NCBI GenBank assembly: GCA_951406725.2
Contig: OX597818.1
Span: 86,118,001-86,182,000 of the forward strand
Reading direction: 5' to 3'
From: Octopus vulgaris
Taxonomy: Eukaryota
DNA length: 64,000 bases
Within the stretch, counting starts at the first letter, position 1. Each line of letters begins with the position of its first letter. Shown here in pieces: positions 10,439-13,894 of this stretch. A program made the position numbers and the translations under genes. The notes beneath the pieces are model-generated. The model was given only the letters and a program-made list of their open reading frames with translations, did not search any database and had not been told where the DNA came from.

Positions 10439-10445
<7 letters not shown>
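10048..10445 (-). mobile_element. Non-autonomous Helitron
   Basis: On the minus strand a GC hairpin (cccgagcaacgccggg, 10060-10075) lies 8 nt before a terminal CTAG followed by T. Flanked by (TA)n; contains an internal ~100-bp tandem duplication (about 10101-10200 and 10202-10304). Confidence 0.75.
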
Positions 10446-10513
<68 letters not shown>

Positions 10514-10544
10514 GGAGTTAACGCAGGTGTAAACAAGTATTTTT

Positions 10545-10630
10545 ACTTTCGACACATGTTTCGAAAATTCCACTGATACTATTCAAAAGAATAAATGGTA
10601 TAAACAATGCAATCTTCTCTTCGGGAAAGT
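10545..10630 (-). ncRNA. Hammerhead ribozyme-like motif (inverted pLTR copy)
   Basis: Mirror image of 10689-10774. Confidence 0.65.
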
Positions 10631-10650
10631 GAAAAAACGAAACTCGTCAA

Positions 10651-10968
10651 TTTTGCTAAAATGTCTTATTGACGAGTTTCGTTTTTTCACTTTCCCGAAG
10701 AGAAGATTGCATTGTTTATACCATTTATTCTTTTGAATAGTATCAGTGGAATTTTCGAAACATGTGTCGAAAGTAAAAATACTTGTTTACACCTGCGTTA
10801 ACTCCATTTTTTATTCATATTATTCAAAATATTCAACGTAAACACGAAGTTTTAACATTTATAACAAGGAGTTACAACACCTTTACTTGTGAGATTTTTG
10901 CTGCCCTGGTAACTATTTATTTATTTTTCCGTGTTAATTGTTAACAAGGTAAAAATACACTCATCTAT
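10651..10968 (+). repeat. 5' pseudo-LTR
   Basis: Matches 13515-13831 with about 3 substitutions and a 1-nt indel (by eye). Confidence 0.95.
10689..10774 (+). ncRNA. Type-I hammerhead ribozyme-like motif, U4C variant
   Basis: actttc-CCGAAGA-gaagatt...aattttc-GAAAC-atgt-GTC-gaaagt: stem I actttc/gaaagt, long stem II, minimal stem III with palindromic ACATGT; predicted cleavage after 10768. Confidence 0.7.
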
Positions 10969-11020
10969 TTATAATACTTTAATCAGGTTTATTAATAACC
11001 TGCTAACTGAATAGTTACAG
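10949..11020 (+). other. Candidate 72-nt spliceosomal intron in the element's 5' UTR
   Basis: aag|GTAAAA donor, gCTAAC branch point at 11003-11007, ttacAG acceptor 3 nt before the ATG at 11024. Penelope-like elements are known to retain such introns. Confidence 0.55.
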
Positions 11021-11023
11021 CAT

Positions 11024-13352
11024 ATGGAGTTATTGAATATTAACGCATCTCTTAAGGACATTCCTATTCCACCTAAGAATGTTTTCCTTAAACAACTTGT
11101 CAATAAGATTAATTCATTAATCAACCGAATAAGATGGCTTACCTTTTTCTTTGACAAAAATGACACTCAACAACACACTAATGATAAAACATCTGAGTTC
11201 AACAAGTTATTTAAATCTAAAAATAGTCCGCCGCCTAACCCAAGGTTGAAGCAATTTGAAGATGATCTCTGGTCCATTGTGAGAAATGTAAAATTTCAAC
11301 GATCACCACTTAGAAATAAACATCTGAGGTATCTTCGCAACATCACCAAAGAAATCAATTCTATGGATACTATGTTGGTTCAATCTAATAAGACTGGAAA
11401 TATGTACAAACTTTATAAAGACTATTATTTGGAATGACTTAAAAAAGAAATTCAGAAAAAGTATAAAATTGCTGATAAAAGAATACTTAAGAAAGCCAAC
11501 ATTGAGGCTATGAAAATCATGGAGAAATATAACCTACAAATGAAGACAGAACCGCTTGTTCCTCAGCAACTTCGGTTCATTTTGAAGGATCACAAACCAA
11601 ATTTTTTTACTAACCCATCATTAAGGCTTATCTGCCCTTCTAGCTCTGACATCAGTATCCTTAGTAAAAATATACTAGATAAATATATTCCTAATTTAAT
11701 CAAAACATTAAAACTTAGGTTATGGACTAATTAATTTGAAGTAGTTGACTGGTTTAGGTCTATTAACAGTAAGGTGGGTACTAAGTTTATCCAGTTTGAT
11801 ATTTCCAATTTTTATTCGTCTATTAATCCAATAGTACTTAATAAGGCACTTTGGCTTGCTCATAACAAAGCTGGTCTCACCCGAGAAGAAATTAATGTTG
11901 TGTTGGCAGCCAGAAGATCTATTATTAAATTTGATGATAAGTTGTGGGTCCGTAAAGACACACCAGATAGTTTCGATATACCAATGGGAAGTTCTGATTC
12001 AGCACAGATAGCTGATTTGGTCTGTATATATATTCTTTTTGAAATGGCTGAAGAGTTCCCTAACATTTATGGAGGTCTATATCGTGATGATTGTTTACTT
12101 TACCTCCAAAATGTTTCCAACCAAAAGGTACAAAAAGTTAAGAATAGTGTAGTTAATTTTTTCAGTAGAATGGGCTTAAAAATCGTTTTTGATGACGATC
12201 TGACGAAGGCCAACTTTTTAGATATTACGCTTAATTTACACAGGGACTCTTACTTCCCATATCATAAACCGTTGACCAATCTTAAGTACATTAGCAAATT
12301 TAGTAATCATCCTGGAGCAATTACTAAGAATTTAGTTAAGAATATTTCATTTAGATTATCTAAGTTATCTGCTAATGTTGATATTTTCAATAATAACGCT
12401 GAATTCTATAACTCTGCCTTAATCAAAGCAGGTTATACAGAAAAAAATTTTCTACATTGATTCTGCTCAGTCTAATTGTAAATTCAATAATGTAGATAAG
12501 ATTTCTAGTCATAAAAGAATTATTGATAACAAACATAACTTACGCACCGATACAAAGCGAATGAAGGCAGATAACCCTTATTTAATTCCCTATTATCGAT
12601 CTAAAAGTAAATATAACACCTTCAAAAGTAATTACGCTATGAATACTAGTAAAAATATTTGGTTAATAATTCCTTACGGGAGACAAATTAAATCTAATCT
12701 CCCACTGCTGTTTCGTCAAGCTATTGCTAGGAATTTTCCAAACAATTCTAGATATTACTCTATAATTAATTCACATAAGGTTAGGATAGGTTTTTCAAAC
12801 ACAAAAAATCTCTTGCAAATTATATCTTCTCATAATAACAAACTGTTAAATATTAATACATTTACAAATACTAACATTAATTTAGCTAATACCATCCAAC
12901 CCTCTAGAAATATTAATAACAAGGTTATTGTATCTCAAGTCAATTCCAATATAATTAAATTTATGTCAAGTAACTCTAAGATTAAAAATTCTATATACCA
13001 GTGTATAATCAGTACTCGTAATAAAGTACGATTTTACATTGGAAGCACATCGTTAGAGTTATCTAAAAGAATTTCTATCCATTACTCAACATTTAGGGAT
13101 AGAAATAAACGGAATAGTACGGGTCTCAGCAAACTGATTTGGGATTTAAAAGACCACAATGAACAATTTCATTTAGAATGGTTGATCCTCTCAATTTCGA
13201 TACCATATGACAAAGGCAAGAAATTCTGTCTTCTCTGCAATTCTGAGCTATTTTTCATTATTTTTTCTAAAAATACTCTAGTAAACACGGTTATAGAGCG
13301 AGCATACAGATGTAAGCATTGGCAAAAACATACATTTAGTGCATATAAGTAG
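11024..13352 (+). pseudogene. Penelope-like RT + GIY-YIG endonuclease ORF (~775 aa reconstructed), disabled
   Basis: ORFs at 11024, 11510 and 11774 share one frame, separated by TGA (11435) and TAA (11732). One extra A in the A-run at ~12441 shifts to the 12561 frame. Motifs: LKDHKPNF, RLICP, FIQFDISNFYSSI, PMGSSDSA, GLYRDD, FLDITLNL, SNHP; SIYQC..FYIGST, CLLCNSE, RCKH. Confidence 0.93.
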
Positions 13353-13514
13353 TCTCTATCATTATATATAATTTAAACTTTAATTTCCTTTATATTTAAC
13401 ATTCACTTTTAATATCCCTACTCTTTCTGTTAGCTACTTATGACGTTATATCATATAACGTTCTTTTAAACAATATTAATAGCGTTCTGTCTATCGATAT
13501 ACAAATCCATCATT

Positions 13515-13826
13515 TTTTGCTAAAATGTCTTATTGACGAGTTTCGTTTTTTCACTTTCCCGAAGAGAAGATTGCATTGTTTATACCATTTATTCTTTGAA
13601 TAGTATCAGTGGAATTTTCGAAACATGTGTCGAAAGTAAAAATACTTGTTTACACCTGCGTTAACTCCATTTTTTATTCATATTATTCAAAATATTTAAC
13701 GTAAACACGAAGTTTCAACCTTTATAACAAGGAGTTACAACACCTTTACTTGTGAGATTTTTGCTGCCCTGGTAACTATTTATTTATTTTTCCGTGTTAA
13801 TTGTTAACAAGGTAAAAATACACTCA

Positions 13827-13831
<5 letters not shown>
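13515..13831 (+). repeat. 3' pseudo-LTR
   Basis: Direct repeat of 10651-10968, ending at (TA)n. Confidence 0.95.
13553..13637 (+). ncRNA. Hammerhead ribozyme-like motif (3' pLTR copy)
   Basis: Same motif as 10689-10774; predicted cleavage after 13631. Confidence 0.7.

Positions 13832-13894
<63 letters not shown>

What the first reader, a model, noticed from the sequence alone, without database searches (positions are those of the whole stretch)
10508..13831. Young, structurally complete Penelope-like element: palindrome, pLTRs, intron, ribozymes and RT/GIY-YIG in 3.3 kb
Seen: four listed ORFs join into one ~775-aa RT + GIY-YIG frame after fixing two single-base stops and one homopolymer frameshift. 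The pLTRs differ at only ~4 of 318 positions and both flanks are (TA)n. Known: PLEs are telomerase-related, form tandem or inverted pLTR structures and favour microsatellites. Inference: this is a recent insertion of a family that may still be active. The GLYRDD motif and the C-terminal CxxC..CxH suggest a Nematis-like rather than Penelope/Poseidon lineage. The Asn-rich linker shows no obvious Cys knuckle before the nuclease.
Basis: partly seen in the sequence, partly recalled or inferred. Interest (0 to 1): 0.75.

Follow-up and report, generated by a model that had tools for sequence, protein, structure and literature searches.

The report
Hydra retrotransposon lacking its zinc knuckle
This is a broken copy of a known kind of jumping gene (a Hydra-clade Penelope-like element), likely from an octopus; its lineage has lost the cysteine "knuckle" proposed to steer such elements into TA repeats, yet its copies still sit in TA repeats, so the knuckle is likely not what aims them.

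Summary
The structure is real: a perfect 144-nt palindrome, pseudo-LTRs differing at 4 of 318 sites, (TA)n flanks, three hammerhead motifs and one RT + GIY-YIG frame. The intron is unconfirmed. This copy is dead (two stops, one frameshift, 0.69% private changes, roughly 2 Myr). The family has hundreds of insertions; 3 of 30 long copies have an open 775-aa frame, and changes shared between copies show purifying selection. By the motifs of Craig et al. 2021 it is Hydra clade, not Nematis. The unusual point: this family and ~60%-identical sister families form one clade (100/100) in which all four cysteines of the linker knuckle are replaced by a conserved cysteine-free motif, while 64 of 64 other nuclease-bearing relatives keep them. 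They still insert at (TA)n (26 of 30 ends; background 4%). This counters the published idea that the linker directs microsatellite targeting. Copies end at two fixed sites 148 nt apart, one of each in 23 of 23 two-armed insertions; this scan noted that rule earlier on other DNA of this genome, but my look-ups found no note of the knuckle loss. Verdict: new variant of a known clade, moderate interest.

The parts
10439..10508 (.). (TA)35 left flank, target microsatellite
10508..10651 (-). Inverted, 5'-truncated second arm (144 nt); ends near the family's 'short' 3' end; forms the perfect palindrome with 10668-10811
10545..10630 (-). Hammerhead motif in the inverted arm (sense on the minus strand)
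   Evidence: mirror of 10689-10774 by the palindrome
10651..10968 (+). 5' pseudo-LTR (partial tandem copy of the 3' end)
10689..10774 (+). Type I hammerhead motif, core CCGAAGA (U4C variant), long stem II, predicted cut after 10768
10909..11020 (+). Possible 5'-UTR intron (GT donor at 10909 conserved in sisters; alternative GT at 10949; CAG at 11018-11020); unconfirmed
11024..13352 (+). RT + GIY-YIG frame, 775 aa in intact copies; here broken at 11435, 11732 and 12441-12447
12080..12091 (+). RT catalytic motif YRDD
12918..12995 (+). Cysteine-free motif that replaces the CxCx5C...C linker knuckle (family: KVIVSEVN[SP]NRIKFMSSNSKIKNSI); this copy has two private changes in it (12936, 12952)
12990..13349 (+). 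GIY-YIG endonuclease (SIY...YIG, R, H, E, N) with C-terminal CxxC and CxH, no CCHH
   Evidence: model residues 654-757 match I-TevI catalytic domain 1ln0, Z 9.9, rmsd 2.2, 89 aligned
13515..13831 (+). 3' pseudo-LTR region ending at the family's 'long' 3' end
13553..13637 (+). Type I hammerhead motif, predicted cut after C13631 (GUC)
13684..13831 (+). 148-nt 'tail' between the two fixed 3' ends (13683 and 13831)
13829..13892 (.). (TA)32 right flank

Best explanation
This is a dead copy of a recently active Hydra-clade Penelope-like retrotransposon whose lineage has replaced the cysteine knuckle before the nuclease with a conserved cysteine-free motif and still inserts into (TA)n, so TA targeting likely resides in the GIY-YIG domain, the replacement motif or end pairing rather than in a zinc knuckle. 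Shown: anatomy, Hydra motifs, knuckle loss across a clade, purifying selection, (TA)n flanks, two fixed 3' ends, one long and one short end in every two-armed insertion, both arms from the same source haplotype. Inferred, by analogy with the in vitro work on Poseidon_Ac (PMC11167929): a source copy is transcribed from its pLTR; the protein binds its own RNA, probably as a dimer, nicks both strands of a (TA)n tract and starts reverse transcription at two internal sites (the positions of 13831 and 13683). The long-start cDNA ran through the ORF into a second pLTR, giving the direct repeats; the short-start cDNA, primed from the other strand, stopped after 144 nt, giving the palindrome. The hammerheads likely self-cleave, possibly releasing a 2863-nt unit; their role in insertion is unknown.
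For: Hydra motifs. RT fold best matches telomerase (3du5; 6zdp Z 15.1, rmsd 5.6, 286 aligned, tied with other RTs); nuclease matches I-TevI. Knuckle: among 158 proteins, 65 had the C-terminal CxxCxxE; 59 matched a CxCx3-9C pattern, 5 more show the cysteines with longer spacing by eye, only L004 has none. All 25 sister frames with a nuclease among 35 fetched loci (2 are duplicates) show the Cys-free motif; 13 counted: 0 Cys in the 30 aa before the GIY tyrosine against 4-6 in six controls. The same motif is in an Octopus sinensis protein, XP_029649382.1; a degenerate codon pattern for it has 710 matches in G000 against 1 control. RT tree of 32 chosen rows: knuckle-less clade 100/100, inside a 100/100 group with knuckle-bearing P0006 and P0009. 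Selection: changes shared by 3 or more copies 42 silent: 22 replacing, singletons 128: 378, Fisher p 3e-10; nuclease alone 7:4 against 25:90, p 0.006; motif pN 0.00-0.23 against pS 0.30-0.94 in 9 pairs; motif identity to sisters 15-17 of 24, nuclease 60-67 of 120. Target: 26 of 30 ends followed by (TA)5 (one is the window copy), background 4.2%; 30 of 30 sister hammerhead loci reach (TA)5 within 400 nt, 28 at two fixed distances. Ends: 23 of 23 two-armed loci long+short; arms discordant at 11 of 207 diagnostic sites against 37% for random pairs.
Against: No biochemical test. (TA)5+ covers 3.5% of this window, and Poseidon_Ac prefers AT-rich DNA in vitro (PMC11167929), so a plain AT preference in a TA-rich genome may explain part of the bias. 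Knuckle-bearing Hydra families are active in the same genome and could help in trans. Only 4 of the 30 sister hammerhead loci show a nuclease within 1.5 kb; the rest are truncated or may be non-coding riders. Loci L066-L094 were picked with a query favouring long ends, so only 11 of the 23 two-armed loci (incl. the window copy) are free of that bias. The motif is low-confidence in the model (611-650 pLDDT under 50). The tree has no Nematis, Neptune or Penelope outgroup. U4C lowers hammerhead activity in vitro (PMC3088659, passage). The YRDD RT scores below Pfam's cut-off.
Confidence: 0.75

Rival explanations
1. The knuckle-less families are aimed in trans: a knuckle-bearing Hydra protein in the same genome nicks (TA)n and the knuckle-less RNA or RT uses those nicks.
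For: Two knuckle-bearing Hydra families with many open frames coexist (L031 708 aa, L061 711 aa) and L031 also ends in TA at two sites; a Hydra-1_Obim-like repeat is present too (172 matches).
Against: The nuclease and the replacement motif are under purifying selection within the family and across sisters whose silent sites are near saturation; catalytic residues are kept; both arms come from one source haplotype.
Confidence: 0.1
2. There is no sequence-specific targeting: the nuclease merely prefers AT-rich or easily melted DNA, and insertions land in (TA)n because such tracts are abundant, or TA is added during insertion.
For: AT-rich preference of Poseidon_Ac and of D. virilis Penelope nuclease (PMC11167929, text read); both fixed ends finish in AT-rich letters (...CATAT...CTAT); TA tracts are common.
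Against: 26 of 30 against 4.2% background, although AT-rich non-repeat DNA is far more common than TA tracts; two-armed copies have TA on both sides. Empty sites were not examined, so TA addition is not excluded. Under this rival the knuckle is still dispensable.
Confidence: 0.25
3. The element is a Nematis-lineage PLE.
For: [quoted passage not shown]
Against: No CCHH, no DKG, no C..CxxC linker; has DKT, RW, YRDD, CxxC/CxH; all best database hits are Hydra-type (YVDD-type motif in 0 of 158 proteins).
Confidence: 0.02
4. The copy is intact in the animal and the three breaks are assembly errors.
For: The frameshift lies in a homopolymer run; raw reads were not available (contigs only).
Against: Two breaks are substitutions among 16 private substitutions, with further private changes in DKT (11387) and the linker motif (12936, 12952); the pLTRs differ at 4 sites; other copies in the same assembly have only 1-2 private changes.
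Confidence: 0.05

Closest known systems
Hydra clade of C-terminal EN+ Penelope-like elements, incl. Hydra-1_Obim (Craig et al. 2021, PMC8557442; abstract, sections 3, 11, 12, 18, passages, supplement parts 2 and 59 and search hits read)
   Same: Single ORF RT + C-terminal GIY-YIG, RW(K/L), DKT, YRDD, no CCHH, CxxC and CxH around E and N, hammerhead in the pLTR, (TA)n targets, unit under 3 kb (2863 nt).
   Different: No CxCX5C linker; two low-complexity Asn-rich insertions (775-930 aa against about 710); hammerhead with U4C core and long stem II; tail 148 nt against the 30-40 bp quoted for PLEs. Not Hydra-1_Obim: different hammerhead, and that repeat is present separately in G000. About 33% identity to the other Hydra families of the genome.
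Poseidon_Ac (PAc) from the green anole, in vitro (Frangieh et al. 2024, PMC11167929; main text parts 1-2 of 4 read)
   Same: Two fixed RT start sites defining a tail, both strands cut, AT-rich targets, hammerhead in the pLTR.
   Different: Penelope/Poseidon clade (CCHH); start sites adjacent and inside the ORF start, targets ATT rather than (TA)n.
Nematis clade (as aligned in PMC8557442 Figs S2, S7; supplement hits read)
   Same: C-terminal GIY-YIG, pLTR structure.
   Different: DKG-type motif, CCHH and C..CxxC linker present, C-terminal CxxC/CxH absent.
Chlamys elements (PMC8557442, abstract and passages)
   Same: Microsatellite bias without the CX2-5CxxC linker.
   Different: N-terminal nuclease and a CxC domain, which the authors invoked for targeting; the element here has neither linker finger nor CxC domain.

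Membership tests
Penelope-like elements | Telomerase-related RT | tested here: met
   Foldseek top hits TERT; Pfam RVT_1 E 3.7e-5, below cut-off; 29-40% identity to Hydra-type PLE proteins
Penelope-like elements | GIY-YIG endonuclease in the same ORF | tested here: met
   model 654-757 to I-TevI 1ln0, Z 9.9, rmsd 2.2, 89 aligned; Pfam gave no GIY-YIG hit
Penelope-like elements | Pseudo-LTRs, tandem and inverted 5'-truncated arms, tail | tested here: met
Penelope-like elements | Hammerhead ribozyme in the pLTR | tested here: met
   topology and core; 6 pairs with two-sided changes, 89% cells paired against 38-57% for slid controls in 12 sequences; cleavage not tested
Penelope-like elements | Retained 5'-UTR intron (optional) | tested here: inconclusive
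   conserved GT donor, acceptor not conserved, no spliced copy or joint
Hydra clade | RWK motif, GxKF/Y not conserved | tested here: met
   RIRWL in family and sisters, aligned to RMRWK
Hydra clade | DKG changed to DKT | tested here: met
   SDKT in L002/L004/L006; window copy has a private NKT
Hydra clade | No CCHH in the nuclease | tested here: met
   one Cys between SIY and YIG, no pair
Hydra clade | C-terminal CxxC and CxH around E and N | tested here: met
   CLLCNSE...VN...RCKH
Hydra clade | CxCX5C linker motif | tested here: not met
   0 Cys in the 30 aa before the GIY tyrosine in the family and 13 sister frames; hence filed as a derived variant, not a typical member
Hydra clade | Insertion into (TA)n | tested here: met
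   26 of 30 against 4.2%
Hydra clade | RT groups with named Hydra references in a tree | tested here: inconclusive
   nests among unnamed proteins that carry all Hydra motifs; named reference sequences and outgroups were not in the tree
Nematis clade | CCHH motif and CX2-5CxxC linker | tested here: not met
Nematis clade | DKG-type motif; no C-terminal CxxC/CxH | tested here: not met
Any family in Repbase, Dfam or a curated octopus library | Nucleotide identity to a named consensus | not testable with these tools
   no such library is held; PMC13282606 counts 31 recently active Penelope-like families in Octopus vulgaris (passages), which may include this one

The most novel reading that the evidence does not exclude
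An octopus radiation of Hydra-clade retrotransposons has swapped the zinc knuckle, kept in every other relative examined, for a new conserved cysteine-free module (SExNPxRIxFxSxNSKI) and still homes to (TA)n with two fixed start sites about 150 nt apart: the linker finger is not the microsatellite-targeting determinant of Penelope-like elements, and this clade is a natural knockout that makes the question directly testable.
Probability: 0.65. Interest if true: 0.55.

Novelty: new variant of a known kind. Interest (0 to 1): 0.45.

Why it matters
How Penelope-like elements choose microsatellites is open. The standing hypothesis ties it to the cysteine linker before the nuclease (stated in PMC8557442, citing Arkhipova 2006, and said there to be strengthened by Hydra). 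A successful clade that lost all four cysteines, kept selection on the nuclease and kept the (TA)n target is a direct counterexample and narrows the search to the GIY-YIG core, the C-terminal CxxC/CxH site, the replacement motif or end pairing. Knuckle-bearing and knuckle-less families with natural open frames sit in one genome, which suits a side-by-side assay. The strict long-end/short-end rule and the long tail extend the two-start-site finding of PMC11167929 to genomic scale. The single copy in the window is ordinary.

Tried and rejected
Rfam found no hammerhead at E up to 1, only hairpin-type miRNA models below their cut-offs on the palindrome. Pfam on the full intact protein gave no family; PDB sequence search gave nothing meaningful. 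PF26215 is not in the searchable Pfam copy, so no canonical-PLE outgroup was fetched that way. No RNA holder is on record for this stretch; 14 holders are only guessed to be RNA and all are contigs, so expression and splicing could not be judged. Contigs of organisms B, C, D and A cover the linker region without listed indels but give no usable haplotypes. The single-sequence fold of the nuclease region was useless (pLDDT 36). The first tree dropped the query through a pattern slip and was redone; P0034's 'no knuckle' label there is a pattern artefact (its cysteines are visible). One search's nuclease pattern was wrong (0 hits) and was corrected. A frameshift origin for the Cys-free motif was considered and rejected by reading the other frames and by its conserved register and codon variation. 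Linear read-through inheritance of two distinct pLTRs: no substitution between 5' and 3' pLTR recurs in two loci among 14 (the recurring gaps are alignment offsets), which fits regeneration of both pLTRs from one template at each insertion but does not prove a circular RNA. No ADAR-type editing in this palindrome (0 of 144 mismatches). Literature: 6 searches; those on Penelope-like + GIY-YIG + linker + Zn-finger + microsatellite returned only Craig et al.. I saw only part of the 23 Hydra proteins in that paper's supplement, and subscription journals and Repbase are not searched, so a knuckle-less Hydra could be on record unseen.
Full report
Observation. The element spans 10508-13831 between (TA)35 and (TA)32. 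It opens with a perfect 144-nt inverted repeat. Direct repeats 10651-10968 and 13515-13831 differ at 4 of 318 columns. Four frames belong to one gene broken by TGA 11435, TAA 11732 and one extra A at 12441-12447; all other copies covering the stops have sense codons, and the window copy alone has the longer A run. The intron is not confirmed.

Family and age. The genome G000 (2.8 Gb) holds at least 49 long matches at 95-100% (only 40 candidates scored) and 1051 exact matches of a 23-nt pLTR word; with one to three pLTRs per insertion that means several hundred insertions. The host is likely an octopus: the published Hydra-1_Obim hammerhead word has 172 matches within 2 mismatches and an Octopus sinensis protein is 98% identical to a G000 locus. 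The window copy has 16 private changes in 2329 nt (0.69%); the youngest copies have 1-2; the closest pair differs at 5 of 2027. With the rate of 0.0036 per site per Myr quoted in PMC13282606 (passage) this copy is about 2 Myr old; assembly error would make that an overestimate. Changes shared by three or more of 58 loci are 42 silent to 22 replacing, singletons 128 to 378 (neutral expectation 2.7; p 3e-10); in the nuclease 7:4 against 25:90 (p 0.006). The sources were therefore selected for a working protein. Another Hydra family (L031, 708 aa) is younger: 29 of 30 loci open, 72 of 435 pairs under 0.1% apart, though those loci were chosen by a protein search that favours open frames.

Classification. 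The predicted fold matches telomerase RT best and residues 654-757 match the I-TevI GIY-YIG domain. Craig et al. 2021 (PMC8557442, section 11) define Hydra by RWK, DKT, no CCHH, a CxCX5C linker, C-terminal CxxC and CxH, canonical hammerheads and (TA)n targets. All but the linker are met. Nematis sequences in their Figs S2 and S7 have the opposite states. An octopus Hydra is already published (Hydra-1_Obim), but its hammerhead and protein differ.

The knuckle loss. Of 158 proteins (155 database hits, L004, L031, L061), 65 reach the nuclease; 64 keep the linker cysteines (59 by pattern, 5 by eye) and only L004 has none. All 45 family copies that cover the linker without gaps lack them. A search with the nearest database protein found a radiation of sister families in G000 with frames of about 900 aa, about 60% identical to L004; all 25 frames with a nuclease carry the same cysteine-free motif in the knuckle's register, as does O. 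sinensis XP_029649382.1. The motif is as conserved as the RT (15-17 of 24 identical against about 200 of 280) while the Asn-rich stretch before it varies in length; pN is far below pS in 9 pairs. In an RT tree of 32 rows that I chose from 164, these families form one clade (100/100) inside a group with knuckle-bearing relatives, so this is a single derived loss.

Targets and ends. 26 of 30 3' ends are followed by (TA)5 against 4.2% of positions in the window; the other four have interrupted TA. By eye 21 of 24 further long copies that reach a 3' end do likewise. Sister hammerheads reach (TA)5 in 30 of 30 loci (27 insertions), 17 at about 140 nt and 11 at about 295 nt. The family ends at 13683 or 13831; 23 of 23 two-armed loci have one of each (11 free of end-selection bias). 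This rule was noted earlier in this scan (e1-8669363) and I tested it here. Opposite arms agree at 196 of 207 diagnostic sites, against 63% for random pairs. Frangieh et al. 2024 (PMC11167929) showed in vitro that a PLE cuts both strands at AT-rich sites and starts at two internal RNA sites that define the tail; the genomic pattern here fits that, with a tail of 148 nt.

Ribozyme. 13553-13637 folds as a type I hammerhead with stem I ACUUUC/GAAAGU, core CCGAAGA, a long stem II, and ACA-UG-UGU-C. Across 12 family and sister sequences six stem II pairs change on both sides and slid controls fall to 38-57% paired (related sequences, so not a probability). Among 54 arms, 41 have CCGAAGA with an intact stem III, 7 the canonical CUGAGGA, and the cut site varies only GUC/GUA in these; sisters have CUGAAGA; the unrelated L031 family also has CCGAAGA. 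U4C is reported to lower activity in vitro yet suffice in vivo (PMC3088659, passage). Hammerheads in pLTRs are known (PMC4209133, part 1 of 4 read).

Meaning. Craig et al. write that the Cys linker was hypothesised to mediate microsatellite bias and that Hydra strengthens the association. This clade breaks it. Against over-reading: no assay was run, intrinsic AT preference is known, TA tracts are abundant here, help in trans is not excluded, and the family may sit unnamed in a curated library. Literature searches and look-ups in this scan showed no report of the loss.

Verdict. Real, mostly as described; Hydra-derived, not Nematis; this copy dead; the lineage is a new variant that offers a direct test of a standing hypothesis. 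Interest 0.45.

Noticed in passing
window:10047-10440: A different repeat abuts the left TA tract, itself preceded by (TA)17; its start (CTAGCAGTATCGCCCGGCG...) also follows the TA flank of L013. It resembles a non-autonomous Helitron/Helentron-type element (recalled, not tested).
   Followed up: no
L031-L060 (e.g. L031:1504-3630): A second Hydra family with 29 of 30 open 708-aa frames, many near-identical, RT motif YKDD, the same U4C hammerhead core and two 3' ends about 70 nt apart; the best candidate for current activity.
   Followed up: partly
L061, L064: A third Hydra family (711 aa, knuckle present) with no hammerhead evident by eye in the 700 nt after the stop.
   Followed up: no
P0061, P0047, P0091, P0010, P0156: Fragments of these Asn-rich Hydra proteins are annotated in NCBI as 'myb-like protein I', 'GATA zinc finger domain-containing protein-like' or 'DDB_G0288805-like' in Octopus sinensis, O. 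bimaculoides and Argonauta hians: transposon fragments named as host genes.
   Followed up: partly
window:12104-12177: Contigs from three runs skip 72 nt inside the RT (ends TC..CT, not a splice), suggesting an internally deleted subfamily.
   Followed up: no
L100:1247-1545: A miniature two-armed insertion of an older (about 85%) subfamily: a 50-nt long-end arm inverted against a 240-nt short-end arm, TA on both sides.
   Followed up: partly
L137-L166: 1080 exact matches of the sister hammerhead pattern; 26 of 30 fetched show no nuclease within 1.5 kb and may include non-coding riders such as the long-stem-II retrozyme of e1-8667016.
   Followed up: partly
window:26592-26804: Two tandem 108-nt units of a tRNA/SINE-like repeat (identity recalled, not tested).
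   Followed up: no
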